From Acidobacteria bacterium RIFCSPLOWO2_02_FULL_67_21 (GTDB taxonomy: Bacteria; Acidobacteriota; Vicinamibacteria; Vicinamibacterales; UBA2999): a DNA stretch of 64,000 nucleotides. Of this stretch, positions 13,243-57,948 are shown one piece after another. Location of the stretch: NCBI GenBank assembly GCA_001767195.1, contig MEKU01000003.1, forward strand, positions 20,710-84,709. The letters are read 5' to 3'. The position numbers were made by a program, and so were the translations under genes. The notes under the pieces are model-generated. The model ran no database searches. It saw nothing but the letters and a program-made list of their open reading frames with translations, and had not been told where the DNA came from. Within the stretch, counting starts at the first letter, position 1; each line of letters starts with the position of its first letter.

Positions 13243-13410
13243 CTAACAGGTGATGGCGGCGCAGAGGCCGTCGAAGTACCCCTGGACCTTGGGACCAATC
13301 GTAAGGATGGTGGCAACCGCGCCCACCGTGATGATCCCCACCAGCAGCCCGTACTCGATCAGGTCCTGACCCGAGTCCTGAGCGACGAACCGAACCAACA
13401 GTGCCCTCAT
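13243..13410 (-). CDS. flp: Flp-family type IVb pilin (second copy, Cys-containing C-terminus)
   Basis: Trimmed to MRALLVRFVAQDSGQDLIEYGLLVGIITVGAVATIL...GLCAAITC (55 aa), with the same G-XXXXEY motif. Confidence 0.85.
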   Translation of the reverse strand: MRALLVRFVAQDSGQDLIEYGLLVGIITVGAVATILTIGPKVQGYFDGLCAAITC

Positions 13411-13582
13411 GAAACATCTCCTCCTGAAACAAGTTCCGCACCCGGCCGCTCGTCGACTCGGGCTCCGGCGCCCACTTGAGCAACGAGGCTGCCACGCCTC
13501 ACGCGGATGACGAGCGACGCTTAGCCGATGCAAGCGAAGCACTTAGTGCCTGCGGCGGCGTGCGCGTTCTTGTCCCTCAGAC

Positions 13583-14131: not shown

Positions 14132-14797
14132 TCAGGAAAGTGTTTGCAGAAGGGCGCGCCACCGCGGCAGGGCATCATCCGTGATCGACGCGCCGCAGAT
14201 CCACGTGGATTCGTCCCGCTCGAGGGTCCAGACAAGCTTTGCTGTCACAGACTGACCGATCGATACAAAATTGAGTACGACGTCTGGCGGCAACGCCCCG
14301 TCCCTGCTTACGCCAACCTCGAAGCCGACACCCCGCTCGCTGACATCCAGCACGCGCCCGGGCTTGTCCACCACGCGTATCGCCACCGGGATCACAAGGC
14401 GCCTCCGCGGTGCTGCTCGTCTCGCCGAATTCGCCGCCCCTTGCCCTTTTGCCTCCTCAAGCATCCGTGCGATCAGACTCAGAAGGGCCTCGGGAGAGAT
14501 CGGCTTCACCACGTAATCGGCTCCCAGACGCCTCGCTTCCGCTTCGAGAGTCGAATCAGTGTGTTCCATGACGACGACAGTCGGAATCGACTTTGGCGCC
14601 ATGGCGAGTACATGCAGCCCGTTCTGCATGCCGACACGAACATCAGTAATCAGGAGATCAGGGTCGGCATCCGTCATGGCCTGCATGGCGGAGGGTACAT
14701 TTCCAACCGTCACCGCCTTATAACCGGCGCCCGCAAGAAGTATCGCGAGCCTTTCGCGGGTTGCCGAATCGTCATCGACGACGAGGATCTTGGACAT
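14132..14797 (-). CDS. Response-regulator receiver fused to a PilZ domain (REC-PilZ paralog A)
   Basis: Trimmed to MSKILVVDDD. The receiver has the acidic pocket, phospho-acceptor LLITDVRV, and KP. The C-terminal PilZ has RAAPR (RxxxR) and DVSERG (DxSxxG). It is a paralog of 22350..23012 and 29831..30493. Confidence 0.85.
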   Translation of the reverse strand: MSKILVVDDDSATRERLAILLAGAGYKAVTVGNVPSAMQAMTDADPDLLITDVRVGMQNGLHVLAMAPKSIPTVVVMEHTDSTLEAEARRLGADYVVKPISPEALLSLIARMLEEAKGQGAANSARRAAPRRRLVIPVAIRVVDKPGRVLDVSERGVGFEVGVSRDGALPPDVVLNFVSIGQSVTAKLVWTLERDESTWICGASITDDALPRWRALLQTLS

Positions 14798-21973: not shown

Positions 21974-22006
21974 CGCGGTGCAGGTCCGGCCGAAGGGGGC
22001 CAGGGG

Positions 22007-22258
22007 TTACGGTGCGAATCGCTGTCCGGCCACCGAGGCCACGCGTGCACGCTCATCAGACGACAGCTCAGAAACACTGAATATGTCGGGACTCTTGCCG
22101 AGAGCATCAGAGTCTTCCATGACGGCCGACGCGGTGAACACGTGTCCGCAGCGGTCGCATTGGAACCAATCTTCGGCGTCGTTGCGCATGATTCGAGGCA
22201 ATGGTTCCACATGCTGGCTGTCGCAGGTGACACAGTGCGGGATCCAGGGCGTTTGCAT
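22007..22258 (-). CDS. Four-cysteine zinc-ribbon miniprotein (paralog of 45301..45567)
   Basis: Trimmed from ORF 22007..22441 to MQTPWIPHCVTCDSQHVEPLPRIMRNDAEDWFQCDRCGHVF (83 aa), with CxxC...CxxC. It aligns along its length with the 45301 protein (MQT, C-TC, VE-LPR-M-DD-E-W-CD-CG-VF, FS-S-L). Confidence 0.7.
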   Translation of the reverse strand: MQTPWIPHCVTCDSQHVEPLPRIMRNDAEDWFQCDRCGHVFTASAVMEDSDALGKSPDIFSVSELSSDERARVASVAGQRFAP

Positions 22259-22270
22259 GGGGCGTCCAAT

Positions 22271-22286
22271 TTCAAGCCACGTGCCA
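22271..22286 (-). promoter_or_regulatory. Candidate sigma54-type -24/-12 element TGGCACGTGGCTTGAA
   Basis: Minus strand reads TGGCAC-N5-TTGAAAT, ending 12 nt before the ATG at 22258. The same pattern, TGGTAC-N5-TTGAAAT, precedes the paralog at 45301. The -12 GC is replaced by GA, so this is non-canonical. Confidence 0.35.
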
Positions 22287-22349
22287 GCCGTGTTTCGCAT
22301 TCGTGACGAAGTGCTCCCACCGCCTCCCCCCTGATGAAGAACTCCAGTC

Positions 22350-23012
22350 ATGGCGTACACGATCCTGGTTGTAGACGACGATCCAACGACCCGCCAGGCC
22401 CTCGCGATGCTGGTTGCGGAGGCGGGGTACGAGGTCCTCACGTCCGGCGATGTGCCATCCGCCCTTCACGTGCTGGAGGACAGCCGGCCGGATCTCTTGA
22501 TCACCGACGTCCGGCTTGCCAACCACAATGGCCTCCAGCTCATCGCGATGGCACCCAGACCCATTCCGACGATTGTGCTCACGGGCTTCGCCGATCCCAG
22601 TATCGAAGCCGACGCACGACGGTTGGGGGCGGAATATCGGACCAAGCCGGTTGAGCCGAGTGCCCTGCGCGACCTCATCGCGCGGATGCTCGCACCGGCT
22701 GAACCCTTCAAGGCCCTGACAGGGAGACGCGGCGCCGGCCGCCGCCGTCTGCCAAACTCAGCGTCGGTACGCGTCGGCCAGCATCTCGGACGCGTCGTCG
22801 AGGTAAGCGCCGGAGGCATGCGCATCGAAGTGCATTGCGCTGAGGAGGCGGACCTACCGGACACCCTCGTGCTCCACATCGCTGCGTCAGGCATCAGTGT
22901 CCCGATCGCCATCGTATGGAAACAGCGGCGGGCCGATCGTACCTGGCTGTGCGGTGCGGCGATTACTCACCAGGCGGAGGCGAAGTGGCGCGCCTTTCTG
23001 GCCACACTCTAA
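22350..23012 (+). CDS. Response-regulator receiver fused to a PilZ domain (REC-PilZ paralog B)
   Basis: MAYTILVVDDD, LLITDVRL, TKP. PilZ motifs RGAGR and EVSAGG (Glu in the D/N position). The C-terminal tail WLCGAAI...KWRAFLATL is shared with paralogs A and C. Confidence 0.85.
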   Translation: MAYTILVVDDDPTTRQALAMLVAEAGYEVLTSGDVPSALHVLEDSRPDLLITDVRLANHNGLQLIAMAPRPIPTIVLTGFADPSIEADARRLGAEYRTKPVEPSALRDLIARMLAPAEPFKALTGRRGAGRRRLPNSASVRVGQHLGRVVEVSAGGMRIEVHCAEEADLPDTLVLHIAASGISVPIAIVWKQRRADRTWLCGAAITHQAEAKWRAFLATL

Positions 23013-23458
23013 TCAGCGCGCACTGAGCGACACTACCCTCGGCGATGTTTCCTTCGCGCACCGTGAGCCGCTTCTCCACACGCAGCGGCTTCGATGTCGG
23101 CTTTTAGCATCCGATTCTGTTTTGTCAGCGCGCGCAGATGCCGCAGCAGATCGGCAGTACGTTTTCGGCTGAGCGGACCGTCGTGCAAGTCGCCGCCGCG
23201 ACGCTTCGCCATGACCTGGAACCTCAGCAACATTACCGGTTCGTCAGGCAGCGGGCAAACGGAAAAAGAGCAAAGGGCGACACGATAAATGTCGCTGACA
23301 AAAGTCTGCTCTATGAGGCAGACAACAAACGCACCGGACTTCACTCGTTGACGAGATCGAGCAGCCCACAAGCGCGCCACTGAGGTAACATTCGCATTAA
23401 CATTTCCTCTGCAGTCGCGCAGCGCCTTGATGCCGGTGTCGTAGGCGTTCTCCACAAG

Positions 23459-24460
23459 ATGTCACGCGTCGTAATCATGGATCAGAGTTTCGGCACTCGA
23501 CTTCGGCTCCAGCGTGAACAACAGCAGGTCAGCCTCTCAGCGGTTGCGGCAAAGACGAAGATCAAGCTCTCCTTGCTCGAAGGACTGGAGCGTGACGATG
23601 TGTCTGCCTGGCCGTTCGGCATCTTCCGTCGGGCGCACATCCGTGCCTACGCGGAAGCAGTCGGCCTAGAGTCTGATGCGGCGGTCCATGAGTTCTTGGC
23701 GCTCTATCCTGATCCCGTCGAAGTACTGCCCGCAGGGACTACCGTCTGGCCTGATCCCAAAGAGGAGTTGACGCGTCCGCAGGTTGATTCCGGATTTCGG
23801 CGTCTTGTGACCTCGGTAATGACCGCGGTTCCCACGTTTCTTCAGCGTGTGGACCGCAGCGCTCCCCTTCTTCCCGTTCTTGTTCTTGAGAAGGAACCGG
23901 CGCCTGAACCTGCCAAGCCTGCAGGCACCGAGCTCGCCTCGCAGCGCACCGCCACGGTTGAGCGCGAGCGTCCTGGTGATGTTCCAGTGCTCCCGCGAGT
24001 GGACCTGCTCGCGGTGGCGCAGTTCTGTAACCGGGTCGGACGTGCGCAATGTATGGATGAGGTTGCTGCGGTCCTTCGAGACGCCTCCATGTGCCTTGAC
24101 GCCATCGGTCTCATCGTATGGTGCTGGGACGGCGATACAACCGCCCTGAAACCTCTCTTGGCGTACGGATACTCCGATGCCACTCTCGCGCGATTTGGAT
24201 CGATTCCTCAAGACGAACAGAATGCCGTCGCCGCCGCATTTCGCTCGGCAGAACCATGCGTCGTCACAGGTTCGGACGGTCGCACTGGCGCGCTCGTCGT
24301 CCCGTCCATCGCATCGGGCAAGTGTCTCGGCGCTCTTGCTCTGGAATTTCAGGACAACAAGGAACAATGCCAGCGGGTGCATGCAGCCGCGACCATCCTG
24401 GCCGCGCAGCTGGTGCCGTGGCTCAGATGGCGACCGGTGGCCGACGCGTTGACCGCGTGA
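23459..24460 (+). CDS. HTH (XRE/RodZ-like) plus GAF domain protein
   Basis: N-terminal FGTRLRLQREQQQVSLSAVAAKTKIKLSLLEGLERDD is RodZ/HTH_25-like. The C-terminal ~150 aa (MDEVAAVLRDASMCLDAIGLIVWCWD...GALVVPSIASGKCLGALALEF) is GAF-like. An alternative start is at 23477. Confidence 0.7.
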   Translation: MSRVVIMDQSFGTRLRLQREQQQVSLSAVAAKTKIKLSLLEGLERDDVSAWPFGIFRRAHIRAYAEAVGLESDAAVHEFLALYPDPVEVLPAGTTVWPDPKEELTRPQVDSGFRRLVTSVMTAVPTFLQRVDRSAPLLPVLVLEKEPAPEPAKPAGTELASQRTATVERERPGDVPVLPRVDLLAVAQFCNRVGRAQCMDEVAAVLRDASMCLDAIGLIVWCWDGDTTALKPLLAYGYSDATLARFGSIPQDEQNAVAAAFRSAEPCVVTGSDGRTGALVVPSIASGKCLGALALEFQDNKEQCQRVHAAATILAAQLVPWLRWRPVADALTA

Positions 24461-24986
24461 GGAGCTTCGCGTTACGGCGGGGCTTTTAGGCATTCGACGC
24501 TTTTGAGTCGGCCGTGTTCTATTTCGATGCCCACCCTCCCGGAGCTTGGATGACCCGAAACCGTATCCATCGGTGTGGCAACAACTTCTCGGCGCTGGCT
24601 CCGCGGCATCCCAATTGCCGTAGTGCGCGCATCCGGCACGCGGATGACCATCCTAACTATTGTTGGACGTCGACCTCAGATGCCGCCGAATCGTGCGCGC
24701 ATCGCCACGGCGCACCTCCAGGCTGCAATTGCGCATCTCAACAATGAGGCACAGCGCCGCGTACTGAACGCCCTGCCAGGAAACGCGGGCGGTGCCGACG
24801 AGCTGCGATTGATTGTCCGGGCGTTGTGTGACGTTGTGGATGCACTTCAGCCGTCGCGCTCCGAGGCGCGGCGAGACACCGCCTGAATTAGATACTACCT
24901 GGGAACATGCTTATCCGTTGGTGCTCGGTTGTTGCCGGTTGGGCCGAATATTGTTCGTTACGTATGACTCATCTCTTCAACTGCAT

Positions 24987-26169
24987 ATGACTCAGAAGCT
25001 GTCGATGTCGCCTGCGAACCCACCACTCATCGTTGGAGAGAGCCCCGCGATACAGACTCTTCGCAATGACATCGCGCGGGCCGCCCGTTCGAAAGCCAAG
25101 GTGCTCATCCTCGGGGAGACGGGCGTTGGAAAGGAAGTCGTCGCGCGATGTATCCATGCGGGAAGCGACCGGCGCAATCAGTCGTGGGTCGCGGTGAACT
25201 GCAACGGTATTCCAGAGACGCTGCTCGAGTCCGAATTGTTTGGGCACGTGCGTGGAAGTTTTACGGGGGCATTTCGCGACAAGATTGGCCTCGTCCAGCA
25301 GGCGAACCACGGAACGCTCTTTCTCGACGAAGTCGGCGAAATGAGCCAGCGAATGCAGGCGGTGCTGCTGCGGTTCATGGAGACCGGCGAGGTGCAGCAA
25401 GTGGGCGCCCACTCTGCCGCGACCTATGCCGCCGTGCGGTTGATTGCCGCCACGAACCGCGAACTATATGCGCAGGTTGCGGCTGGCGCCTTCCGTGCAG
25501 ATCTGTACTACCGCCTCAACGTCATTCTCATCCGCGTGCCGCCACTCCGCGACCGCGGCGACGATGTGCTGCTGCTGCTGCTGCTGCTGCTGCACTATGC
25601 TCAATCAGGCCGCCCAGCTGCACGGCCTGCATTGTCCCGGGCTATCGCCCGATGCGGTCGCATCGCGTATGGCGTATCCGTGGCCAGGTAACGTCCGAGA
25701 ATTGAAGAACGTCGCTGAGCGCCTCGTGTTGAAGGAATCGAACGCATTGACAACAGCAGACGTCCCGACCGAAATCCGCCGCGGGCCCGCCCGCTTCGCC
25801 GCCGGTCACACGTACCAACCGGAGGCGCCGCCGATCGCTTCACCAGCCAGCAACGTCGTAACGGAGCGCATGGAGCAAGCCTGGCAGCGCATACGAGCCG
25901 GTGAGGATTTTTGGACGGTGGTGCAACCGGCCTTCAAGGCGCGGGAGTTCACACGAAGCGATCTTGTCTCGTTGATCGATCGCGGACTGCACGAGGCGGG
26001 CGGGAGCTATCGCGAGCTCTTGAAAGTGTTTCATCTTCCATCGGAGGAGTGCAAGCGCTTCCACTCCTTTCTCTATCAACAGCAGTGCAACCTTCCTGTC
26101 TCACAATACCGACAACAGCGTCGGCCCAGGGCGTCCGACGAATCGAAGGGCGATCAGAAGGCCTCATGA
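24987..26169 (+). pseudogene. Sigma54-dependent activator (bEBP) lacking an N-terminal sensory domain; reading frame broken at about 25599
   Basis: Two ORFs (24813..25691 and 25444..26169) together align end to end with the intact paralog 30526..31689. They carry Walker [15 protein letters not shown] (GAFTGA variant), [11 protein letters not shown] and a Fis-like C-terminal HTH. Frame 0 matches up to ...LLLLHY; frame +1 matches from LNQAAQLHGL. One extra nt lies near 25599, 6 nt after a (CTG)8 tract. An alternative start is at 25005. Confidence 0.8.
25569..25592 (+). repeat. Perfect (CTG)8 trinucleotide tract inside the bEBP coding sequence
   Basis: Read directly: GTG then CTG x8, encoding poly-Leu (DVLLLLLLLLHY). 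The paralog has only LLLLE at the same place. Confidence 0.95.
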
Positions 26170-26231
26170 AGATCCTAAGACTGATGGGCGCAGCGACCCC
26201 TGTTCTCGTGCCAACGGTCCGCCATCGCCAC

Positions 26232-26543
26232 CTAACCCGCGGTCATGATTGTCTGAGGGGGTGAGTCTGCGGGTCTCCATTGCCGCAGGGCGGCAACGGC
26301 CTGCTCGACGGTAGCCACCAACGGAAGTCGTAGCAGCAGGTCGACGCCGGGATGTCTGTCGGAAGAGACCTGCAGCCACCAGGCGTCTCCATCTCGGTGC
26401 ACACCGACGACAAGCGCTTTCCACGGTCGATCGTCCTCAAAGACGCGTTCGTCGAGAGCGGCGATCACCCGGTCGAGGCGGTGGCTGACACGCGAATCTG
26501 CGGGAAGAACCATGTCGTCCAGCGTTTGTTTTTCAACCCTCAT
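26232..26543 (-). CDS. Hypothetical protein
   Basis: 103-aa ORF with high third-position GC, no overlap with better genes, no recognisable domain and no clear SD. Confidence 0.35.
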   Translation of the reverse strand: MRVEKQTLDDMVLPADSRVSHRLDRVIAALDERVFEDDRPWKALVVGVHRDGDAWWLQVSSDRHPGVDLLLRLPLVATVEQAVAALRQWRPADSPPQTIMTAG

Positions 26544-26727
26544 GCCGACGCCGCGTCACGTCTCGACGTTCCGTAAATGCTTGTTCCTATTGAGATCAGG
26601 CATCTTCCGACGACATCTGAATGTCAGAAGTCACACGTTCGGGAGTTATCAGGCTCTCAGGAGTCCGACTGTTGTCCGGCGGTTGTCGTGATTTCTGAAT
26701 TCCGCCACAACGTCGTTCGTAGTCTAA

Positions 26728-26997
26728 AGTGCAGTCAGGAGGCACAGCAGTCCGGCGATGAGAGGTTGCACTCGACGCGAGAGGCCGGTCAGCGAGATCG
26801 CTTCCGAGGCAACGCCGGATTCGGCACGGTTGGTCGCGCCCGAGGTTGTCCGATCCGTCGATGCCCGGAGTGCGGCCGCCGCGTCTCGGAACTCCCGAGC
26901 GGCTTCCGCCACCTGACTCGAAATACTCTGCTCGAATGCGTCGAGTCTCGTCTGCGGTGCACGAGGGAATCGTGCGCGGCGCGCGTGCGTCGGCATA
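26728..26997 (-). pseudogene. Fragment of a paralog of the RskA-like gene 45667..46836
   Basis: About 270 nt align at roughly 90 percent identity with 46190..46461 (encoding [20 protein letters not shown]...RRVQPLIAGLLCLL). Similarity stops exactly at the IS630 end (cggcaTA) on one side and near 26728 on the other. Confidence 0.85.
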
Positions 26998-28006
26998 AGC
27001 GGATTTCATGAGCCCATAGACGCCGAGCAGCGGCAATGCCGACAAGTAGTGGCGGCACTCGCCGGCTCGAAGCGCGGCAACGACGCGCCGATGTGGCCCA
27101 CAAGAGCTCGCGGGTGCGGTAGCGCGCCTTCCGCAGGATCGCTTTCAGCTTCGCAAACGCGTGCTCGATCGGATTCAGATCCGGACTGTATTTCGGGAAT
27201 ACCAGAGACTCGCGCCGGCGCTCTCAATCGCACGGCGAACCGCCGGACTCTTGTGACACGACAGATTGTCCAGGATGACGATATCGCCAGGCGCCAGCGT
27301 CGGGACCAGGATCTGCTCGATGTAGGCGAGGAAGCTGGGTCCGGCGAGGGATCCATCAAAGACGGCGGGCGCGGTGAGGCCCGCCGTCACGCCCAGAGCG
27401 ACCAGACACGTCGTGGTGCGCCAGCGTCCGTCGGACGCGTGGTCGGTCACCCGCGCGCCGTAGCGCCGCACGAGATCGGTCCGCACCCCGCTTTCATCTA
27501 AATTTAGGAAATACCAGGCGTGTGGGATCGAGCGTCGGCGCGGCCGCCTGCCACACCGTGCGGGCGAGCGCCACGTCAGCGCGATCGTGTTCGGACGCGC
27601 GTACCGTTCTTCTTAAACCGGAAGCCGAGCTGCTTGATTGGTCCGGCTGAGCGTGGGAAGACTGGCCGGGGTCCGCAGCGCCTCCTGCAATTCGGCCAGC
27701 GTGCGATCCGGCTGCTTGCGGATCAACGCTTCCAGCTGCGCGAGTTGGGCGTGGAGGATCGGCGTGCGCCAGGGCGTTTGCTTGCGCGGCGCGATCTCAC
27801 CCGTCTCGCGGCGCCGCTGCTTCAACCGATCGACCCACCCCCGACTGACGGAGTACTTCTCAGCGAGCTCGTCGGACGCGAGGCCGGCATCCGCGTCGCG
27901 CAGCACCCGCAGTCGGAGATCCATGGAGTACGCGGCCATCGGCACCTCCTGCGCGCCAGGAGTACCGCGACCGCGCACTAACCTTAGGTACGAGCACAAT
28001 CCGCTT
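26998..28006 (-). mobile_element. IS630-family insertion sequence with a degenerate (multiply frameshifted) transposase
   Basis: An N-terminal HTH ORF starts at 27939 (MAAYSMDLRLRVLRDADAGL...). DDE_3-type pieces lie in other frames ([53 protein letters not shown]). Terminal inverted repeats are AGCGGATT (26998-27005) and AATCCGCT (27998-28005), flanked by TA, the usual IS630 target. Confidence 0.85.
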
Positions 28007-28821
28007 TAGGGGCCGCCTTCTACGGCGAGCACGATCCGGTAGGGGACCGGAGAGGCGGCCCTGACTGCTGGTGTGAACGTGAATTGCTTTGCGCGGCTGA
28101 GCAACATCGCGTCGTTCATGGTCCGTGAAGGTGCCAGCAGCCGCACCCGTTCGACGATGCCCGTAGCTGATACCCACAGTTCAATGAGGCTCCTGCTCGA
28201 CAGGCCGAGTCCGGTGGCTCGCGGAGGCACGAACCCGCGCGACAGCAACTGTGGAGGCACGACGTCGACGTCGTCCTGCGAATAGGTACGGCCCTCGTCA
28301 GCTCGTACCGGCGAAGCCGCCGGCTCCGCCAGCTGACCCGCACTCGAAAGGGCGTCATCGACGTCACCAATCGTAGGGCCTGACGGCACCACGGCATGCT
28401 GCTGGATCGCGAGTGTGGGCGTGGGTGTCACCGAGCTGTGGCCTTCGGTTACGACGGACTGCGGCCGGGCTGTGGTGCGAGTTTCTGGAAGCCGGACGGG
28501 CGCCACGGGGCCTTCTCCCTGCGGCGGAAGGAGGATGTCGGGGCCCGTGGGCACTGCGGTGGCGGCAGCTGCCTCTGCGGGGGTGCTGGGTGAGGGCCGA
28601 CGGTGCATCCACCAGTTGTAGCTCACAAGGCTTACAACGGCGACGATCGCCAGACCTGCGGCAACAATCCACGCCAGCGGGCGATGCCGCGGTGTCAGCC
28701 CGGACTCGTCTTCCGCCACCGATGGAAGGTCGGGCGTACGGGGAAGTGCTTGTTCAGAGCCTGTCTCCAGAGACAGGAAAGGAACCCGGGAGGTGGGCGG
28801 CCAGGCGAAATCTTCCCGCAT
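28006..28821 (-). CDS. TonB C-terminal-domain-like membrane-anchored protein
   Basis: TM helix LAWIVAAGLAIVAVVSLVSY, a Pro-rich linker, and a C-terminal segment (VVPPQLLS...IELWVSATGIVERVRLL...AKQFTFTPAV) resembling TonB_C. The start is uncertain (28821 chosen; the ORF extends to 28986). The stop codon TAA sits on the IS630 junction. Confidence 0.55.
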   Translation of the reverse strand: MREDFAWPPTSRVPFLSLETGSEQALPRTPDLPSVAEDESGLTPRHRPLAWIVAAGLAIVAVVSLVSYNWWMHRRPSPSTPAEAAAATAVPTGPDILLPPQGEGPVAPVRLPETRTTARPQSVVTEGHSSVTPTPTLAIQQHAVVPSGPTIGDVDDALSSAGQLAEPAASPVRADEGRTYSQDDVDVVPPQLLSRGFVPPRATGLGLSSRSLIELWVSATGIVERVRLLAPSRTMNDAMLLSRAKQFTFTPAVRAASPVPYRIVLAVEGGP

Positions 28822-28989
28822 TGCCGAACGGCTGAGCAACGAGCGTACCACGCTGTTCTTCCGCTGGGCGTGCGTAGCGCGCCGCGGAACGCACGGTAAG
28901 TGCTTCCCCAGGCAGACATCTGACTGGCTGTGCTCGACTTGAACTTCGGGTGGCGCTAGCGACCAAAGCGGAACCGCAACAGCCACCAG

Positions 28990-29159
28990 CGCCCACCGCT
29001 GCTCCCCGCGCAGACTCCAGCGGCGCTGATCGTCTCGCGGCGGACGCCCGTCGTCTGCTGGATACGCGACAGCGTCCAGCCGAGACGGCCCAGTCCGAGG
29101 ATTTGCTGCTGCTTCGTGTCGTCTGCGGTCGGGAACCTACTTGAGGGATTGGCTGGCAT
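28990..29159 (-). pseudogene. Remnant of an IS21-family istA N-terminal HTH
   Basis: DDTKQQQILGLGRLGWTLSRIQQTTGVRRETIS parallels DDHKQQEIRALGRLGGTLSRIQEATGVRRETIG of the istA copy at 38537. The frame is lost afterwards. Confidence 0.65.
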
Positions 29160-29569
29160 GCAATCTGCTCCATCGGCAGATGAGAACAGACAACCCTCAT
29201 GGAGCCGTTCCTCAGCACCACCGTGTTCGTGGGCCCAGCATTCATCGCTGTAGCGGCCAGTCGGGCCATCCTCAGCCTCGTGCTGCGCGTGATAACAACA
29301 GCTGCGTTGAGCGAGGCAGACCCAGGAGCGTCCGCCGCGAGAGTGTGACGGCCACCAGGCTCCTCGTCATTCGTCCTTTACAGCATTCATCGTCACTGCA
29401 CACTATTTCGGGGGTGCGCCCTGCGCGCCGATCGATCAAAAGAAGGCAACAGACGACACGGGGATGTGACGAGGACCTGCTGCACGCAATTTGTCATTAG
29501 GGCGTCACTTTCGTTACTTCACCCTCTCACCGCCGAGAGGATTGATCCACTGGTGCTGAGACACTTGAC

Positions 29570-29585
29570 TGGCATTTGAGTTGCT
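29570..29585 (+). promoter_or_regulatory. Sigma54-type promoter TGGCATTTGAGTTGCT
   Basis: Matches TGGCAC-N5-TTGCW at 11 of the 12 specified positions, with exact GG/GC spacing. It lies 28 nt upstream of an SD-preceded ATG (29614) and next to a sigma54 activator gene. Confidence 0.65.
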
Positions 29586-29613
29586 AGCCAGCGATCACGA
29601 GGGAGGACACCTG

Positions 29614-29763
29614 ATGGAGTTCGCTATTTACGTTGCAGGCGGAACCCTCGTCATCCTCGGGATCGTGCGACGGACGGCACGCGCGCCTCGAGCGCGCATC
29701 AATGTCACTCCGTTGAGCGACCAGTGGCTTGCCGAGCAGAGACTGACGCGACACAGCTGGTAG
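29614..29763 (+). CDS. Small single-pass membrane protein (49 aa)
   Basis: MEFAIYVAGGTLVILGIVRRTARAPRARINVTPLSDQWLAEQRLTRHSW. A strong SD (GGGAGGA) lies 7 nt upstream. It sits between the sigma54 promoter and REC-PilZ C. Confidence 0.55.
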   Translation: MEFAIYVAGGTLVILGIVRRTARAPRARINVTPLSDQWLAEQRLTRHSW

Positions 29764-29830
29764 GTTGCGACGGTACGTGCGGACAGCATGCCGACCATCG
29801 GGAACCGCGAGCTACCAGCGTGAGAGCCAT

Positions 29831-30493
29831 ATGGGTCAGACCATCCTGATTGTTGAGGACGATCCGAGCACGTGCGAAGCCGAGGTCGGGTTACTGGCGG
29901 AGGCGGGCTATGACACGATCACCGCCAGCACTGTCCCATCAGCCCTCGAAATTCTGAAGACACGCCGCCCCGACCTGCTGCTCACGGACGTCCGGCTCGA
30001 CGCCTACAACGGCCTGCAACTGATCGCAATGGCGCCAGAACCGATCCCCGCGATCGTGCTCACTGGGTATGACGATCCGAGTCTCAAGGCAGAAGCGCAG
30101 CGGATGGGCGCCGAGTACCTGGTCAAGCCCGTGACGCCGACCGTCCTGCGTGAGGTCGTTGCCCGCAAGTTGGCAAGTGCGGCGCAGGCTGGCGTCTTCC
30201 GTGAGGCCAGACGCGCGCCCCGGCGACGTGTTGTGATGCCCCTTTCGGTGCAGGCGGGCACCCATGTGGCACATCTGATCGATATCAGCGCCGGTGGATT
30301 ACGCCTCGAAATACGTTGTGTGCCGGGCCAAGGGTTACCGCCATCCATATCGGTCCGGTTTGTTGCGTTCGACGTCTCTCTACGCGTCGCGGTCGTCTGG
30401 AAGCGGCGCCTCAACGACACCACGTGGATGTGCGGTGCCGCGATTGACCCAAGCGATAAGCCCCAGTGGCAACGGGTGCTCGCTACTGTCTGA
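29831..30493 (+). CDS. Response-regulator receiver fused to a PilZ domain (REC-PilZ paralog C)
   Basis: MGQTILIVEDD, LLLTDVRL, VKP. Canonical PilZ motifs RRAPR and DISAGG. Tail WMCGAAI...QWQRVLATV. Confidence 0.85.
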   Translation: MGQTILIVEDDPSTCEAEVGLLAEAGYDTITASTVPSALEILKTRRPDLLLTDVRLDAYNGLQLIAMAPEPIPAIVLTGYDDPSLKAEAQRMGAEYLVKPVTPTVLREVVARKLASAAQAGVFREARRAPRRRVVMPLSVQAGTHVAHLIDISAGGLRLEIRCVPGQGLPPSISVRFVAFDVSLRVAVVWKRRLNDTTWMCGAAIDPSDKPQWQRVLATV

Positions 30494-30525
30494 ACGGTGC
30501 CGCGTGCCGTCAGGTGGCGCCGGGA

Positions 30526-31689
30526 CTACGACGGACCGGTCCAGGACGTCTTCGGTCCCATGTACACGGGTATCGATGATCGCCTGCGTAGGTTGCGATA
30601 GGGGGCGACGGGAAGGTTCGCGCGCTGCTGGTATAAGAACGCATGAAACCGCTTGTAGTCTGACGGGGGGAGGTGAAAGAGCCTGAGCATGTCGCGGTAG
30701 TGGCCGCATGTCTCCTGAAGCGCGCGATCGATTATGCTGACCAGTTCTGCTCGTGTCAGCTCCCGTGTCTTGAACGCTTCATGCACGACGGCCCAGAAAT
30801 CTTCCCCGCTTTCAAGGCGCGCCCAAAGCTGCTGCGCCTGTTCGGTCATGCCGGTGTCCGCCATCATCGGCCGCGGCACCGAGTCCTCCGACGGCAGCGC
30901 ACCGACAATGACGCCTGTGGCGCTGGTGCCACGGATTTCGAGTTGCAGGTCCTCGGGCATTAGGGGCCCCACTCGATCCTGCAGCACGAGCCGCTCTGCT
31001 ACATTGCGCAACTCGCGGACGTTGCCCGGCCACGCGTACGTCAAGAGCAACCGGGCGGCGTCCTCGCTCAACGACGGCATCGGCAAATCATGAGCCCGAG
31101 CAGCGCACTGCAGGTAGTGTTCAAGGAGCAAGAGGACATCTTCGCCCCGCTCCCGCAGTGGGGGAACCTGGATCCGAATGAGATTGAGACGGTAATACAG
31201 GTCCTCGCGGAATGCGCCTGCGTCAATCTGGGCCCTCAGATCGCGGTTCGTGGCCGTGATCAGCCGCACATCCGTGCGGAGCGTGCCGGAATCCGACCCC
31301 ACCCGCTGCACTTCCCCCGTTTCCGCAAATCGCAGCAGCATCGCCTGCATCCGCAGACTCATTTCCCCCAACTCGTCAAGGAAGAGTGTGCCTCCGTTGG
31401 CCTGCTGGATGAGCCCCACTTTGTCGCGAAAGGCCCCCGTGAAACTGCCGCGCACATGACCAAAAAGTTCCGATTCGAGGAGAGTTTCGGGAATCCCGCT
31501 GCAGTTCACCGCCACAAACGGACAGCCCGCACGGGCGCCATGCATGTGGACCAGTCGAGCGACCACCTCTTTGCCAACGCCCGTTTCGCCGAGGATCAGC
31601 ACCTTCGCGTGGCTGCGCGCGGCTAGCGCCACCTCGGCGCGTAGTCTCTTTATCATGACACTTGCGCCGAGCAGTGATGGCCCTTGCAT
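30526..31689 (-). CDS. Sigma54-dependent activator (bEBP) consisting only of an AAA+ core and a C-terminal HTH
   Basis: The start ATG at 31689 lies 5 nt after AGAGAGG. Walker A GETGVGKE is about 30 aa from the N-terminus. Also [17 protein letters not shown] and a Fis-like HTH ([30 protein letters not shown]). No receiver, GAF, PAS or V4R region. Confidence 0.9.
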
Positions 31690-31798
31690 CAGCACCTCTC
31701 TTGTGAAGACCTTCCGACGGGAAGAGTTAGGATGAACGCCAGAGTTTCGCTCTTGAGACAGCCCAGATCAATCACGAAATGATGCCTTGTCAGTCATT

Positions 31799-31826
31799 AC
31801 ATCCTTGTGATCACATCCTTGTGATC
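31799..31826. repeat. Tandem 2 x 14 bp repeat ACATCCTTGTGATC, creating the palindrome TGTGATCACA
   Basis: Read directly. It lies about 110-140 nt upstream of the bEBP start, in a lower-GC intergenic region. Confidence 0.9.
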
Positions 31827-32220
31827 GGAGCCGCGGGGTATGCGCACATCCGCACACACCACCGGCTGCGGAAATCATCTCTTTCGGCGTGGGCGCTCAC
31901 AGCGACCGTGTCGCAATGTCCGGGGCCCCGGTCCCGCCCAGTCAACCTACACGTTCAATGATGTTGCGGGTTTGGGCGGCTTCTTACGGGATTACCTGAA
32001 GAGCCTTGAACAGGGAACGGCTGGGTCCCTGCATGCCGCGGTGGATCGTCCGACAGAAGACTGCCAGTCCGCTGGCGGTGTGTGATGCGGATCGACGCCT
32101 CGTCGTCTCACAGCCCTTGCTGGCGAACGACGTGAAACGAGGACGGCCCACCGGTCGACAGGTCGACGTCCGCACCGGTCGCCCTTCGGCCAGCAACGGC
32201 GTCTGACGAAACCTCTCTGT

Positions 32221-32520
32221 TCAGGTATCGATCAGGAATCGGCACTCGTCGAACCGCACCGCGGCGACTCCTGCCGGTGTGGTGCGCACCACATCGGCGA
32301 CACACACAAGTTGGCCTGGTGGCATCGAGCCGAGCCACACCGGCGTCGAAAACACCACCTCAATGGATGCGCCGGGTTCAAGATTGGCCGGCGCAAACAT
32401 GGCGCCGGACTCGCTGATATTGATCACTCGGGCCTGCGTCCACTCGGCCTGACCGGGGCGACGGTACAGGAGCGGGACGGTCAACGTGAGGCGGGTCGCA
32501 CGCGACTGCTCGATCTGCAC
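32221..32520 (-). CDS. Stand-alone PilZ domain protein
   Basis: Trimmed to the GTG at 32520, which has GAGAGG upstream. NISESG matches (D/N)xSxxG. The N-terminal arginine motif is degenerate (RATR). It lies just downstream of the HD-GYP gene. Confidence 0.65.
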   Translation of the reverse strand: MQIEQSRATRLTLTVPLLYRRPGQAEWTQARVINISESGAMFAPANLEPGASIEVVFSTPVWLGSMPPGQLVCVADVVRTTPAGVAAVRFDECRFLIDT

Positions 32521-32540
32521 GGCCGAACCTCTCTTACGAC

Positions 32541-34148
32541 TCAGCCGATTGGCGGAGGTCCAAGCGGATAATGGAGCGCCCCGATCTGACAGAGCCGGAT
32601 GAATTCGCTCACGAGATCGCGGCGCCGCCACCCAATTTCTGCCTCATGGGCTAGTACGTGACACGCGGCCTCCGGCCCTTGGGCCGCTCGGTACGGCCGG
32701 ACTGTGGTCAGCGCATCATACGCATCGACAATCCCGACCATCTGCGCCAGTAATGAAACATCTTCACCGGAGATTCCGTCTGGATAGCCGCTGCCATCCA
32801 GGCGTTCATGGTGCTGGCGAATAATCGGTCGCACCAGCCGAAGCGTCTTCAGGTCCTGGCAGAGATGCTCCCCGATTTGCGTATGCCGTTTCATGACATC
32901 AGGCTCAGCGGATGTCAGCGGGCCGGCTTTGAGCAGGATCGCGTCCGGCAATGCGACCTTGCCAAGATCATGCAGCACTCCCCCGCGCCTGAGGGCCACC
33001 ACCTCGTCCGATGCGAGTCCGAGGTGCGTCCCAAAGATGCCTGCATACTGGGTCATCCGATCGCAATGGCCGGCGGTGTACGGATCCCGCGCTTCGATGG
33101 TGCGCGCCAGGGTTGCCAAGATCGTGTCCGCGGAATCGAGGTCATCGGTGTAGCGCTTCAGGCGAATCAACGACCGCACTTTCTGGATCAGTTCGCCGGA
33201 GCAAACCGGCGTGCACAGCACGTCGGTTGCCACGGCCTCGATGCCGAGGAGTCGCGCCTCCTCGTTCCTGTCGCCGATCAGCACGACCGGCACGAACCGG
33301 GCCAGTGGATCATCCCTCAGCCGCGCACACAGCTCCGCGCCAGCGCTCCCGGCGTCGCTGATCACCACGTCTGGCGTCCGCTGCCGAACAATCTCCAACG
33401 CCTCCCGCTGGTCCTGAGCAGCGTGCACGACGTAACCGCAGGCATGCAGCAGCCCGCCAACCCGCGCTCGGTTGTGAACGTCGCCCACCACCACGATCGT
33501 TCCAGCTGGGTGGTTGCCCCCGTCCGATGATCGTGGACCAGAACGCACGCCGGCGCCGTGGAGCGTCGTCTGTGCCACGGGTCTGGGTCTGCTCTGCCCG
33601 TCCATTCGAGGGCGATGCCGGGGGACCTGGTTGGCGTGCGGATCGATGAGGAGCCGAAGCGCATACCCACTCGGCATGCCCGTCGCCGCGCTGGAAGACA
33701 TGATCCGGTACACCGCGGCCATGACGTATCCCCTCCGCAGTGCGGCCGGTAGATTCGCACGATCGTGTTCGGTGGGCTCCAGATGAAGATGGACCAGGCG
33801 GTGCAGCGGAATGAAGGCGGCTCCCCGGCATTCGACAAAGACGTCATATTCACTGACGTTCCGGGTGATCACAGGCACGTGGCGCACCGCACCCCGACCG
33901 TCTCGCCACCGGAGCCACCCGGGGACGGCAATTCGGTGCCGCTGCCCACGGCGGGACTGGTACGGGGCCGGCGCTGACGAACCGACGTCCATCGGTCCAC
34001 CACGGCGCGCAGAGAGAGGCCTTTCGGGAGCCCGCTCGCCGTCGGACTCGGGCATCACCATTCGAACGCTTTTCCGTCGTTTCCGCACGTGACCGGCTGC
34101 TGTGGACATGCATCTCGGGTGTCCGCGGAACGGCGGACCGGACACCAT
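32541..34148 (-). CDS. PilZ-like plus receiver plus HD-GYP domain protein (putative c-di-GMP phosphodiesterase)
   Basis: HD-GYP core HDLGK...HHERLDGSGYP. Central receiver (DVVISDAGS...). N-terminal RRGQR...NVSEYD is PilZ-like. The start codon is uncertain. Confidence 0.85.
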   Translation of the reverse strand: MVSGPPFRGHPRCMSTAAGHVRKRRKSVRMVMPESDGERAPERPLSARRGGPMDVGSSAPAPYQSRRGQRHRIAVPGWLRWRDGRGAVRHVPVITRNVSEYDVFVECRGAAFIPLHRLVHLHLEPTEHDRANLPAALRRGYVMAAVYRIMSSSAATGMPSGYALRLLIDPHANQVPRHRPRMDGQSRPRPVAQTTLHGAGVRSGPRSSDGGNHPAGTIVVVGDVHNRARVGGLLHACGYVVHAAQDQREALEIVRQRTPDVVISDAGSAGAELCARLRDDPLARFVPVVLIGDRNEEARLLGIEAVATDVLCTPVCSGELIQKVRSLIRLKRYTDDLDSADTILATLARTIEARDPYTAGHCDRMTQYAGIFGTHLGLASDEVVALRRGGVLHDLGKVALPDAILLKAGPLTSAEPDVMKRHTQIGEHLCQDLKTLRLVRPIIRQHHERLDGSGYPDGISGEDVSLLAQMVGIVDAYDALTTVRPYRAAQGPEAACHVLAHEAEIGWRRRDLVSEFIRLCQIGALHYPLGPPPIG

Positions 34149-43827: not shown

Positions 43828-43959
43828 CGGCGGACTCCTTTCAACGGAATCCGCAATTCTGAGCCTGGTACTTATGTGGACTTCGCCGCGGGCTCGCCTC
43901 GCAGCCGTTGCGCAACCGGCGGCCGTTCACCACATAACTGCGGCGCCAACATAATCGAA

Positions 43960-50637: not shown

Positions 50638-50874
50638 GCGTGAGATTCTCATCGAGGCCGACGTTCTGAACATTTCGGTGGTTATCGGCATCATAGACGT
50701 CGTGGCGGGACTATTAAACAAATCACCCCAGGCTCCAACCGCGCCGCTGCTGCATGTCGGACGCCATGGCCTGCAGCGACTTCTGCAGACTTCAGGGAAA
50801 TGGCCGGCTTCGTTGACCATCCCGCCGAGCTGGCCGCCCATCCTCCGCGCTTCGCGCACCTAAAACGCCGCGAG

Positions 50875-52415: not shown

Positions 52416-52431
52416 CACGTAGTGCCCGGCT

Positions 52432-53823: not shown

Positions 53824-53824
53824 G

Positions 53825-56587: not shown

Positions 56588-56598
56588 GCGCGTTCACA

Positions 56599-57873: not shown

Positions 57874-57948
57874 CGGCCGTAGTAAGCTATTGAAATATCG
57901 ACCACTTGCCCTCGACCGAGTGACTGACTAACATCAGGGCCTTCCACC

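What the first reader, a model, noticed from the sequence alone, without database searches (positions are those of the whole stretch)
22007..31695. Repeated module: REC-PilZ hybrid next to a sensor-less sigma54 activator, a possible c-di-GMP/phosphorylation gate on sigma54 transcription
Three paralogous ~220-aa proteins (14132-14797 minus, 22350-23012 plus, 29831-30493 plus) fuse a complete receiver to a PilZ domain. The receiver has the acidic pocket, the LL(I/L)TDVR(L/V) acceptor and KP. The PilZ domain carries RxxxR and (D/E)xSxxG. All three share the tail W-x-CGA-x-I...W-x-x-x-L-x-T. Two of them sit beside paralogous bacterial enhancer-binding proteins (24987-26169 and 30526-31689). These begin only ~30 aa before Walker A and have GSFTGA and a Fis-like HTH, but no REC, GAF, PAS or V4R input domain. 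Established knowledge: input-less bEBPs such as PspF and HrpR/HrpS are controlled in trans by a partner protein, and PilZ domains bind c-di-GMP. Inference: the REC-PilZ proteins could be the missing trans-acting input modules, integrating phosphorylation and c-di-GMP. An HTH-GAF protein, zinc-ribbon miniproteins and a small membrane protein may be further components or targets. I do not recognise this as a described system.
Basis: partly seen in the sequence, partly recalled or inferred. Interest (0 to 1): 0.8.

Follow-up and report, generated by a model that had tools for sequence, protein, structure and literature searches.

The report
PilZ partner proteins for sensor-less sigma54 activators
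A soil acidobacterium carries small proteins, each joining a phosphorylation receiver to a c-di-GMP-binding PilZ domain, beside sigma54 transcription activators that lack any sensor, and relatives keep the two genes together or fuse them, so this looks like an undescribed way for c-di-GMP to control sigma54-dependent genes.

Summary
Three REC-PilZ paralogues (39-50% identical) and one intact input-less sigma54 activator, bEBP2, are as described. Corrections:
- bEBP1 carries a 1-nt frameshift in all four assemblies of this species, so it is probably a pseudogene.
- bEBP1 is separated from REC-PilZ2 by an HTH_25 gene.
- REC-PilZ3 and bEBP2 are convergent, not co-transcribed.
- The "Fis-like HTH" matches no known model.

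The interpretation survived both refutation tests I could run.
1. The short N-termini are real. An upstream stop bounds the bEBP2 ORF, and the best 120 relatives listed are all 354-435 aa.
2. Co-location recurs outside this species in six further independent contigs (seven with the window). Three are bEBP->REC-PilZ operons and three are convergent pairs. All fall in the one REC-PilZ clade that holds the window's paralogues.

Four protein clusters, 55-82% identical to one another, are natural fusions of this short bEBP with this PilZ type, without REC.

Sigma54-type promoters are enriched in the window (8 seen, 1.5 expected). One precedes the Flp pilin gene and one precedes the REC-PilZ3 operon.

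Direct binding, c-di-GMP binding and the sign of regulation are untested. Most short bEBPs and many REC-PilZ genes are unpaired. Verdict: a new variant of partner-controlled bEBPs.

The parts
29831..30493 (+). REC-PilZ3: receiver plus PilZ, 220 aa, immediate convergent neighbour of bEBP2
   Evidence: Pfam Response_reg E 3.9e-17 and PilZ E 1e-6. Motifs E9/D10, D53, T78, K99-P100, RxxxR and DxSxxG are present. It is identical to P0011 of MAG GCA_001767515.1.
30526..31695 (-). bEBP2: intact input-less sigma54 activator, 389 aa. AAA+ is residues 9-258, a disordered linker is 258-280, and a conserved five-helix C-terminal domain is 285-356.
   Evidence: Pfam Sigma54_activat E 4.4e-63 and AAA_lid_14. 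The ORF is bounded upstream. AF2 pLDDT is 83, with the C-terminal domain about 95. GSFTGA is invariant. The C-terminal domain has no Pfam, PDB or NCBIfam match.
22350..23012 (+). REC-PilZ2: receiver plus PilZ, 220 aa, followed by the HTH_25 gene
   Evidence: Pfam Response_reg E 1.8e-16 and PilZ E 4.9e-5. The AF2 model has pLDDT 83: a (beta-alpha)5 receiver, a disordered RxxxR linker at 117-129, a beta-barrel and a C-terminal helix. The receiver half matches solved receivers.
14132..14797 (-). REC-PilZ1: third paralogue, first gene upstream of the Tad/Flp pilus cluster. Its receiver lacks the conserved Thr (Met78).
   Evidence: Pfam Response_reg E 7.5e-15. PilZ scores E 5.6e-4, below the curated cut-off. 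Met at the T78 column. Downstream genes are DUF192, Flp pilins, prepilin peptidase, TadE, RcpC, secretin, TadG, a REC-like protein (weak Response_reg hit; a CpaE/TadZ role is my inference), the CpaF-type ATPase (T2SSE) and two T2SSF genes (TadB/TadC).
24987..25691 (+). bEBP1, 5' part (AAA+ core) in frame 1, running into a premature stop after the frameshift
   Evidence: ORF 24813-25691 has Sigma54_activat E 4.7e-64 at residues 73-240. Sequence read.
25597..26169 (+). bEBP1, 3' part (AAA+ lid plus conserved C-terminal domain) in the +1 frame. The repaired protein is 60% identical to bEBP2. Probable pseudogene.
   Evidence: AAA_lid_14 E 8.7e-14 on ORF 25444-26169. The frameshift is shared by the window, L001, L002 and L003. 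Identity.
23459..24460 (+). HTH_25 (RodZ-type HTH) protein with a weak GAF-like C-terminal half. HTH_25 genes follow REC-PilZ in a sister clade.
   Evidence: HTH_25 E 9e-15. GAF E 0.0087, below the cut-off. The REC-PilZ plus HTH_25 pair occurs in L004, L005, L093 and L094.
26232..26543 (-). Conserved 103-aa protein of unknown function, associated with REC-PilZ genes
   Evidence: jackhmmer finds relatives beside REC-PilZ in L005, L088, L092, L093, L094 and L169, E 1e-26 to 4e-33. No Pfam or NCBIfam match.
29614..29763 (+). 49-aa membrane miniprotein, first gene of the putative operon with REC-PilZ3
   Evidence: ORF with a GAGGGAGGA ribosome-binding site, 29 nt after the sigma54-type site. No Pfam match.
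29570..29585 (+). Sigma54-type -24/-12 site TGGCATTTGAGTTGCT, upstream of the miniprotein/REC-PilZ3 genes
   Evidence: One mismatch to TGGCAC-N5-TTGCW. The window has 8 such sites against 1.52 +/- 1.18 expected, and 0 of 100 shuffles reach 8.
13479..13494 (-). Sigma54-type site TGGCAGCCTCGTTGCT, 68 nt upstream of the Flp pilin start (13410)
13243..13410 (-). Flp pilin gene (55 aa), candidate target of the activators
   Evidence: Translation MRALLVRFVAQDSGQDLIEYGLL... lies downstream of the site. Tad genes are next to it.
22007..22258 (-). 83-aa CxxC...CxxC zinc-ribbon miniprotein, divergent from REC-PilZ2, preceded by a sigma54-like site at 22271-22286
   Evidence: Zn_ribbon_8 E 0.0037, weak. 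Site. An unrelated zinc-ribbon protein follows bEBP-REC-PilZ in L169 and L170.
32221..32631 (-). Stand-alone PilZ protein upstream of bEBP2. The ORF is as listed; the gene called in sister assemblies is 99 aa.
   Evidence: PilZ E 1.1e-5. Gene calls in L001 and L002.
32541..34148 (-). REC-HD-GYP protein, a predicted c-di-GMP phosphodiesterase. A bEBP plus REC-HD-GYP pair recurs in L004.
   Evidence: HD_5 E 1.7e-30 and Response_reg E 1.8e-8. L004 genes.

Best explanation
The locus encodes a two-part transcription switch. The output part is a short sigma54 activator: an AAA+ motor plus a conserved helical, probably DNA-binding, C-terminal domain, with no sensor of its own. The input part is a REC-PilZ protein whose PilZ domain docks on the activator.

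c-di-GMP binding to the RxxxR/DxSxxG site changes that contact. Where the receiver is intact, phosphorylation of Asp53 changes it too. The contact in turn changes the activator's ability to assemble, hydrolyse ATP and open sigma54 promoters.

In this genome the working pair is REC-PilZ3/bEBP2. The REC-PilZ2/bEBP1 pair has decayed. Likely targets are the sigma54-type promoters in the window, including those before the Flp pilin gene and before the REC-PilZ3 operon itself.

Shown here: the domain architectures, motif conservation, conserved adjacency, natural fusions and promoter enrichment.

Inferred: physical contact, c-di-GMP binding, the role of phosphorylation and the target genes. The sign of regulation is also inferred. 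My guess is that c-di-GMP relieves inhibition and so turns on adhesion genes.
For: (1) Architectures and motifs.

(2) The activator family is uniformly input-less. The best 120 relatives listed (60-99% identical) are all 354-435 aa.

(3) The two genes are immediate neighbours in seven independent contigs.
- Operons bEBP->REC-PilZ, with a gap of 30 nt or less or overlapping reading frames: L092, L169, L170.
- Convergent pairs: the window, L087, L174 and the P0034 contig.
- In L004 the two genes lie 6.3 kb apart.

(4) All bEBP-linked REC-PilZ proteins form one clade together with the window's three paralogues.

(5) Rosetta-stone fusions. P0391 (496 aa), P0392 (490 aa), P0394 (491 aa) and the fragments P0244 and P0393 are this short bEBP (62% identical to bEBP2) with a C-terminal PilZ of exactly this family. 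That PilZ is 50% identical to the PilZ halves of L085 and L087. RRxPR, (E/D)xSxxG, W-x-CG and QW are kept. The fusion proteins are 55-82% identical to one another, so the fusion is old and maintained.

(6) In M. xanthus, MXAN_2902 is an enhancer-binding protein with a fused PilZ domain (PMC8316039).

(7) Sigma54-type sites are enriched in the window: 8 seen against 1.5 expected, and 0 of 100 shuffles reach 8. They sit at sensible distances before genes.

(8) Established knowledge: bEBP AAA+ cores without regulatory domains are constitutively active, and known ones are held in check by partner proteins (PspA for PspF, HrpV for HrpS).
Against: - No biochemical or structural evidence of contact. 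No complex prediction could be run.
- The pairing is not general. Fifteen REC-PilZ loci from other clades, and L085 from the same clade, show no bEBP in the flanks held.
- The contigs of three close short bEBPs have no REC-PilZ within 8 kb.
- REC-PilZ1 heads a Tad pilus cluster and has no bEBP beside it.
- In the window the best pair is convergent, not co-transcribed.
- Operon-type partners have Glu at the acceptor position, and the fusions have no receiver. Phosphorylation therefore cannot be essential to the mechanism.
- No sigma54-type site was found near the paired genes in other loci.
- No shared upstream activator sequence was found in the window.
- The presence of rpoN in the genome was not checked.
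Confidence: 0.55

Rival explanations
1. Same regulon, no contact. The REC-PilZ proteins are c-di-GMP adaptors that act on envelope machines such as the Tad pilus ATPase or the exopolysaccharide synthase, as YcgR, PilZ/FimX or Alg44 do. The bEBPs merely control transcription of the same adhesion functions. The genes cluster because they belong to one biofilm island.
For: REC-PilZ1 is the first gene before the Tad/Flp cluster. An exopolysaccharide cluster, a stand-alone PilZ and a REC-HD-GYP gene lie in the same 20 kb. L087 has Wzz/Poly_export genes and two single PilZ genes beside a short bEBP. Many REC-PilZ loci have no bEBP.
Against: Covalent fusions of this PilZ type to this bEBP, kept over 55-82% identity, are hard to explain without joint action on one molecule. 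The three tight bEBP->REC-PilZ operons sit in unrelated neighbourhoods: a Peptidase_M50 gene upstream, and no pilus or EPS genes.
Confidence: 0.2
2. Regulator and target. The bEBP simply activates transcription of the neighbouring REC-PilZ gene. The REC-PilZ product then signals elsewhere and does not feed back on the activator.
For: A sigma54-type site lies 29 nt before the miniprotein/REC-PilZ3 genes, next to bEBP2.
Against: No such site lies near REC-PilZ in the other paired loci. In three loci the two genes are co-transcribed in the order bEBP->REC-PilZ. Fusion proteins exist.
Confidence: 0.1
3. The family is a general plug-in regulator for sensor-less DNA-binding proteins, and in this locus the live partner of REC-PilZ2 is the HTH_25 protein rather than a bEBP. 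The bEBP link is only one of several partnerships.
For: A sister clade always has REC-PilZ followed by an HTH_25 gene and the 103-aa gene: L005, L093 and L094, partly L004 and L088. The window has the same order, REC-PilZ2 then HTH_25, with the frameshifted bEBP1 between HTH_25 and the 103-aa gene.
Against: This does not conflict with the main explanation for REC-PilZ3/bEBP2. The sister-clade HTH_25 proteins carry hydrophobic, membrane-like C-termini and may not be transcription factors.
Confidence: 0.1
4. Chance juxtaposition of two abundant signalling families in a gene-rich regulatory island.
For: Both families are large, and the window has several other signalling genes.
Against: Immediate adjacency recurs in seven independent contigs, confined to one clade. 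Fusions exist. No member of this bEBP family (score above 260 bits) appears in 1.55 Mb of control loci.
Confidence: 0.03

Closest known systems
PspF/PspA and HrpS/HrpV (input-less bEBPs controlled in trans by a partner protein)
   Same: The activator is an AAA+ core plus a C-terminal domain, with no N-terminal sensor. bEBP2 aligns with PspF residues 8-241 at E 7e-57. A candidate regulatory partner is encoded next to it.
   Different: The partner is unrelated to PspA or HrpV. It is a receiver-PilZ protein, so the predicted signals are c-di-GMP and phosphorylation, not membrane stress or a secretion checkpoint. No NCBIfam PspF model reaches its cut-off (245 bits against 443). Inhibition by binding is not shown.
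FleQ, VpsR, FlrA (bEBP-type regulators that bind c-di-GMP directly)
   Same: c-di-GMP would control a sigma54-type activator that governs adhesion or motility genes. bEBP2 aligns with the FleQ AAA+ domain at E 3e-64.
   Different: There the nucleotide binds the activator's own AAA+ domain, and the protein has an N-terminal domain. Here the predicted receptor is a separate, or C-terminally fused, PilZ domain. I did not test whether bEBP2 keeps the FleQ c-di-GMP-contact residues.
MXAN_2902 of Myxococcus xanthus (enhancer-binding protein with a fused PilZ domain)
   Same: A PilZ domain and a sigma54 activator sit in one polypeptide, like the fusions P0391, P0392 and P0394 found here (PMC8316039).
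   Different: According to that paper its PilZ domain is predicted not to bind c-di-GMP, and binding was not studied. The PilZ domains here keep RxxxR and (D/E)xSxxG. I did not compare the sequences, so homology of the fusion event is untested. No trans-acting REC-PilZ partner is described there.
PixA of Myxococcus xanthus (PilZ-receiver response regulator)
   Same: A single protein joins a c-di-GMP-binding PilZ domain and a phosphorylatable receiver (PMC8316039).
   Different: The domain order is reversed (PilZ then REC). PixA regulates cell polarity and reversals, is an orphan gene and has no bEBP link.
NtrC1/DctD/NtrC (receiver fused to the AAA+ activator)
   Same: A receiver domain would gate a sigma54 AAA+ motor. 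Many of the nearest non-family receiver matches in the genome scan are NtrC-type REC-AAA+ proteins.
   Different: Here the receiver is on a different polypeptide, is followed by PilZ rather than a coiled-coil linker, and is dispensable in the fused and Glu53 variants.

Membership tests
CheY-like receiver (REC) domain | (beta-alpha)5 fold | tested here: met
   AF2 model of REC-PilZ2, residues 1-115, pLDDT 83-95. Foldseek matches to the PhoP, Spo0F and DivK receivers, TM(target) 0.82-0.91, E about 1e-8.
CheY-like receiver (REC) domain | Acidic pocket, phospho-acceptor Asp, conserved Thr/Ser and Lys | tested here: met
   D/E9, D10, D53, T78 and K99-P100 are present in REC-PilZ2 and REC-PilZ3. REC-PilZ1 has Met at position 78. 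The relatives L090, L092, L169 and L170 have Glu at position 53.
CheY-like receiver (REC) domain | Phosphorylation by a cognate histidine kinase | not testable with these tools
   No kinase gene was among the window ORFs scanned with Pfam. A hybrid kinase is adjacent in the P0034 contig, and a GAF kinase is nearby in L004.
PilZ domain (c-di-GMP receptor) | RxxxR and (D/N)xSxxG motifs | tested here: met
   R127xxxR131 and D/E151-x-S153-x-x-G156 are present in all three paralogues. They are invariant or nearly so in the family and kept in the fusion proteins.
PilZ domain (c-di-GMP receptor) | Pfam PF07238 above the curated score | tested here: inconclusive
   29.4 and 24.0 bits for REC-PilZ3 and REC-PilZ2 (cut-off 22.5), but 20.6 bits for REC-PilZ1.
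PilZ domain (c-di-GMP receptor) | Beta-barrel preceded by a flexible RxxxR linker and followed by a C-terminal helix | tested here: inconclusive
   AF2 predicts six strands at 132-205, a helix at 207-219 and a disordered stretch at 117-129. The fold search was dominated by the receiver half, so the barrel was not matched to a solved PilZ.
PilZ domain (c-di-GMP receptor) | Binds c-di-GMP | not testable with these tools
   Needs DRaCALA, ITC or similar.
Bacterial enhancer-binding protein (sigma54 activator) | Sigma54-interaction AAA+ domain with Walker A/B, arginine fingers and sensor II | tested here: met
   Sigma54_activat E 4.4e-63. The domain aligns with NifA and ZraR through [23 protein letters not shown] and WPGNVREL.
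Bacterial enhancer-binding protein (sigma54 activator) | GAFTGA sigma54-contact loop | tested here: inconclusive
   The loop reads GSFTGA, invariant in 42 family members. The Phe and Thr are kept. The functional effect of Ala->Ser was not assessed.
Bacterial enhancer-binding protein (sigma54 activator) | C-terminal Fis-type HTH (Pfam HTH_8) | tested here: not met
   No HTH_8 hit at E<=1. A profile of the domain finds nothing in PDB sequences at E<=10. A confident five-helix domain is predicted, so DNA binding is plausible but unproven.
Bacterial enhancer-binding protein (sigma54 activator) | Sigma54 (-24/-12) promoters to act on; rpoN in the genome | tested here: inconclusive
   Promoter-like sites are enriched: 8 seen against 1.5 expected. 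rpoN lies outside the window and was not looked for.
Partner-controlled input-less bEBPs (PspF/PspA type) | No N-terminal regulatory domain | tested here: met
   A stop bounds the ORF. The AAA+ domain begins at residue 9. Relatives are 354-435 aa.
Partner-controlled input-less bEBPs (PspF/PspA type) | Partner protein that binds the AAA+ domain and controls ATPase | not testable with these tools
   Only indirect support: adjacency in seven contigs and four fusion clusters.
Partner-controlled input-less bEBPs (PspF/PspA type) | Membership of the PspF equivalog | tested here: not met
   TIGR02974 scores 245 bits against a cut-off of 443. No NCBIfam equivalog is reached.

The most novel reading that the evidence does not exclude
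This PilZ family is a detachable c-di-GMP 'sensor subunit' for transcription factors that have no sensor of their own. It works in trans as REC-PilZ (with or without a live phospho-acceptor), or fused to the C-terminus of a short sigma54 activator. In a sister clade it may work with HTH_25 proteins. That would be the first PilZ-mediated control of a sigma54 AAA+ activator, and a new logic in which a second messenger and a two-component signal converge on the activator through a third protein.
Probability: 0.4. Interest if true: 0.75.

Novelty: new variant of a known kind. Interest (0 to 1): 0.62.

Why it matters
c-di-GMP is known to reach sigma54 activators only by binding the activator itself (FleQ, FlrA, VpsR). 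Input-less activators are known to be held by dedicated inhibitors (PspA, HrpV). A PilZ protein acting as the exchangeable input of such an activator would join the two themes. It would give the large, unexplained population of sensor-less bEBPs in Acidobacteriota a candidate control mechanism. It would also add transcription by sigma54 to the list of PilZ outputs.

The locus also suggests what is controlled. Sigma54-type promoters precede the Flp pilin gene and small envelope proteins, so the switch would link c-di-GMP to Tad-pilus adhesion in an abundant but poorly studied soil order. The natural series (full receiver, Glu53 pseudo-receiver, receiver-less fusion) offers ready-made variants for experiments.

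Tried and rejected
(1) I took the 400-aa bEBP1 gene in sister assembly L001 as evidence that the frameshift was an assembly error. Alignment showed that L001 has a run of N that shifts the frame artificially. Rejected.

(2) I looked for a shared upstream activator sequence before the eight sigma54-type sites (10-mers, one mismatch). Nothing exceeded shuffled controls.

(3) I looked for sigma54-type sites beside REC-PilZ/bEBP pairs in 21 other loci. None was in a meaningful position.

(4) I tested whether the small convergent genes after unpaired short bEBPs (L171, L173) are the conserved 103-aa protein or a PilZ. They show no homology and no Pfam hit. L173's 85-aa protein only resembles PilZ by eye.

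(5) I looked for a PilZ domain in the long N-terminal extension of the REC-HD-GYP ORF. No hit at E<=1.

(6) A fold search on the REC-PilZ model meant to confirm the PilZ barrel was dominated by receiver hits and was uninformative for the barrel.

Three paired contigs (L169, L170 and the P0034 contig) and L174 were found by matching contig lengths between the two hit lists, which is a biased selection.

(9) No sigma70-type promoter or terminator signal stood out in 21900-32700.

Full report
SOURCE AND CONTEXT

The window is 99.9% identical to contig MELD01000076.1 of the MAG 'Acidobacteria bacterium RIFCSPLOWO2_12_FULL_67_14' (GCA_001767515.1). Close relatives are labelled Vicinamibacterales. 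The finding sits in a region rich in adhesion and c-di-GMP genes:
- a complete Tad/Flp pilus cluster on the minus strand from about 14.1 kb down to about 1.7 kb;
- an exopolysaccharide-type cluster at 14.9-20.8 kb, with an epimerase, a HEAT protein, a 496-aa GT2 synthase and an outer-membrane barrel;
- a stand-alone PilZ gene and a REC-HD-GYP gene at 32.2-34.1 kb;
- IS630 transposase fragments at 27.2-28.0 kb.

OBSERVATION

The three REC-PilZ proteins are real and 39-50% identical to each other. In an alignment of 27 family members the following are invariant or nearly so:
- receiver residues D9, D10, D53, T78, K99 and P100;
- PilZ motifs R127xxxR131 and DxS153xxG156;
- the family-specific W190, W199, C201-G202 and W213.

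An AlphaFold2 model of REC-PilZ2 (pLDDT 83) shows a receiver, a disordered linker carrying RxxxR, a beta-barrel and a C-terminal helix. The receiver half matches solved receivers.

bEBP2 is a complete sigma54 AAA+ activator that starts eight residues before the domain. It cannot be extended upstream, because the ORF is closed by a stop.

- bEBP1 is split by one extra base just after a (CTG)8 run. The lesion is shared by all four assemblies of this species. The apparently intact copy in L001 is produced by a gap of Ns.
- bEBP1 lies about 2 kb from REC-PilZ2, beyond an HTH_25 gene.
- REC-PilZ3 and bEBP2 are convergent.
- REC-PilZ1 lacks the conserved receiver Thr.
- The C-terminal 'Fis-like HTH' matches no Pfam model, no PDB sequence and no NCBIfam equivalog. 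It is, however, predicted as a very confident five-helix domain and is highly conserved.
- The GAF assignment is weak.

THE TWO FAMILIES

The REC-PilZ family is large: 806 clusters at E<=1e-3 among the candidates scored, and the best 120 listed are proteins of about 212-261 aa.

The activator family is also large and strikingly uniform. The best 120 clusters are 60-99% identical over 88-99% of bEBP2, all are 354-435 aa, and all have only the sigma54 and lid domains. GSFTGA replaces GAFTGA in all 42 members aligned.

A profile of the C-terminal domain finds 1010 representative proteins. Most full-length ones are short. A few carry GAF, kinase/STAND or unknown N-terminal regions.

DO THE GENES TRAVEL TOGETHER?

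In scans and look-ups, 27 loci from other organisms hold a full-length REC-PilZ. The NJ tree also includes the three extra look-up loci and three database proteins.

The proteins that neighbour a short bEBP all fall in one clade, which also holds the three window paralogues. Within it:
- L092, L169 and L170 have bEBP->REC-PilZ operons, with gaps of 30 nt or less or overlapping reading frames;
- L087, L174 and the P0034 contig have the same convergent arrangement as the window;
- L085 has none.

A sister clade instead has REC-PilZ followed by an HTH_25 gene and a conserved 103-aa gene, the window's 26232-26543. In L004 this group lies 6.3 kb from a short bEBP plus REC-HD-GYP pair. Deeper clades show no recurrent partner.

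From the activator side, three close relatives on long contigs have no REC-PilZ within 8 kb. The partnership is therefore clade-specific, not universal.

No member of this bEBP family (score above 260 bits) appears in 1.55 Mb of unrelated control loci.

FUSIONS

The C-terminal-domain profile picked up P0244, a fragment in which that domain is followed by a PilZ domain. Its cluster mate P0391 (496 aa) is a full short bEBP, 62% identical to bEBP2. It ends in a PilZ domain 50% identical to the PilZ halves of the bEBP-linked REC-PilZ clade, and it has no receiver.

A search with P0391 found P0392 (490 aa), P0394 (491 aa, from an NCBI Vicinamibacterales MAG, with precomputed Pfam hits to both PilZ and Sigma54_activat) and the fragment P0393. 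These proteins are 55-82% identical to P0391. All keep RRxPR, (E/D)xSxxG, W-x-CG and QW.

A fusion maintained over that divergence is the classical sign that two proteins act on each other. It points to the PilZ domain, not the receiver, as the part that belongs with the activator. Consistent with that, all three operon-type REC-PilZ proteins have Glu in place of the acceptor Asp.

The literature offers one precedent for a PilZ-bEBP fusion, MXAN_2902, whose PilZ domain is unstudied (PMC8316039). It offers one PilZ-receiver protein, PixA, with reversed domain order and a polarity function. Searches found no description of a REC-PilZ/bEBP system.

TARGETS

Sites matching TGGCAC-N5-TTGCW with at most one mismatch number 8 in the window, against 1.52 +/- 1.18 in shuffles, and none of 100 shuffles reaches 8. 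They lie:
- 68 nt before the Flp pilin start;
- 29 nt before the 49-aa membrane miniprotein that precedes REC-PilZ3;
- just before the zinc-ribbon miniprotein;
- just before a TonB_C-like membrane protein;
- before four other genes further downstream.

I found no shared enhancer motif and no equivalent sites in other loci. Assigning these promoters to bEBP2 is therefore inference.

MECHANISM

Best-supported model: the short activator is the output, and the PilZ domain, free as REC-PilZ or fused, is its c-di-GMP-sensing input. The receiver adds a phosphorylation input where it is intact.

By analogy with PspA/PspF, HrpV/HrpS and c-di-GMP/FleQ, the contact should control oligomerisation or ATPase activity. 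The sign is unknown. I guess that c-di-GMP switches on adhesion genes.

Rivals:
- shared regulon without contact;
- simple regulator-target adjacency;
- HTH_25 as the real partner of REC-PilZ2;
- chance.
All are weakened mainly by the fusions and operons, but they are not excluded for individual paralogues, notably REC-PilZ1 at the Tad cluster.

VERDICT

This is a new variant of partner-controlled sigma54 activators, and to my searches it is undescribed. It is computationally well motivated but entirely untested at the bench.

Noticed in passing
window 25570-25600: bEBP1 carries a perfect (CTG)8 run encoding eight leucines, immediately before the 1-nt frameshift. The paralogue bEBP2 has four leucines there. 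I do not know whether the repeat has anything to do with the lesion.
   Followed up: partly
L092, L169, L170, L090 (REC-PilZ genes): All three REC-PilZ proteins co-transcribed with a short bEBP, and also L090, have Glu instead of the phospho-acceptor Asp53. They are pseudo-receivers or phosphomimics. L110 and L111 have Ser and Gly at that position.
   Followed up: partly
window 26232-26543 (-); L005, L088, L092, L093, L094, L169: A 103-aa protein with no database family recurs next to REC-PilZ genes in six other loci. The overlapping 74-aa ORF on the other strand (26352-26576), called as a gene in sister assemblies, has no relatives outside the species and is probably spurious.
   Followed up: partly
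L169 1806-5338 and L170 6054-9284: A conserved block: Peptidase_M50 (site-2 protease type), short bEBP, Glu53 REC-PilZ, then a 122-aa CxxC...CxxC zinc-ribbon protein.
   Followed up: no
window 40963-43827 (-): Three tandem, overlapping tyrosine-recombinase genes (240, 307 and 415 aa) resembling a 'recombinase in trio' element. Next to them are an rve integrase (43927-44721) and an IstB fragment (39285-39641).
   Followed up: no
window 26728-26997 and 46190-46461: A 272-nt stretch is repeated at 96-97% identity between the region after bEBP1 and a site 19 kb downstream. It may be a MITE or an IS end. IS630 transposase fragments lie at 27175-27999.
   Followed up: no
window ~50000-64000: G+C rises from about 0.62 to about 0.70 at 50 kb, and third-position G+C rises to 0.8-0.9. 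This could be a boundary between an island-like region and core genome, or a chimeric join.
   Followed up: no
window 13479-13494 (-) and 13243-13410 (-): The Flp pilin gene of the Tad cluster has a sigma54-type promoter. A 16-nt palindrome, CAGACTCCTGAGTCTG, lies about 85 nt further upstream and is a candidate enhancer site.
   Followed up: partly
window 32541-34148 (-): The REC-HD-GYP ORF has an N-terminal extension of about 200 aa with PilZ-like strings (RGQRHR, NVSEYD) but no Pfam hit. Sister assemblies call much shorter genes (318-393 aa), and L003 has it frameshifted.
   Followed up: partly
L087 3892-5903: A second short bEBP (355 aa) is flanked by two stand-alone PilZ genes (102 and 103 aa) and precedes Poly_export/Wzz polysaccharide-export genes. 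So short bEBPs also pair with single-domain PilZ proteins, as does bEBP2 in the window (PilZ at 32221-32631).
   Followed up: no
window 47222-47237 (+) and 57858-57873 (+): Further sigma54-type sites precede a 756-aa secreted protein with Big_7 Ig-like domains, and a TPR-like lipoprotein gene (my reading of the translation, not checked against Pfam).
   Followed up: no
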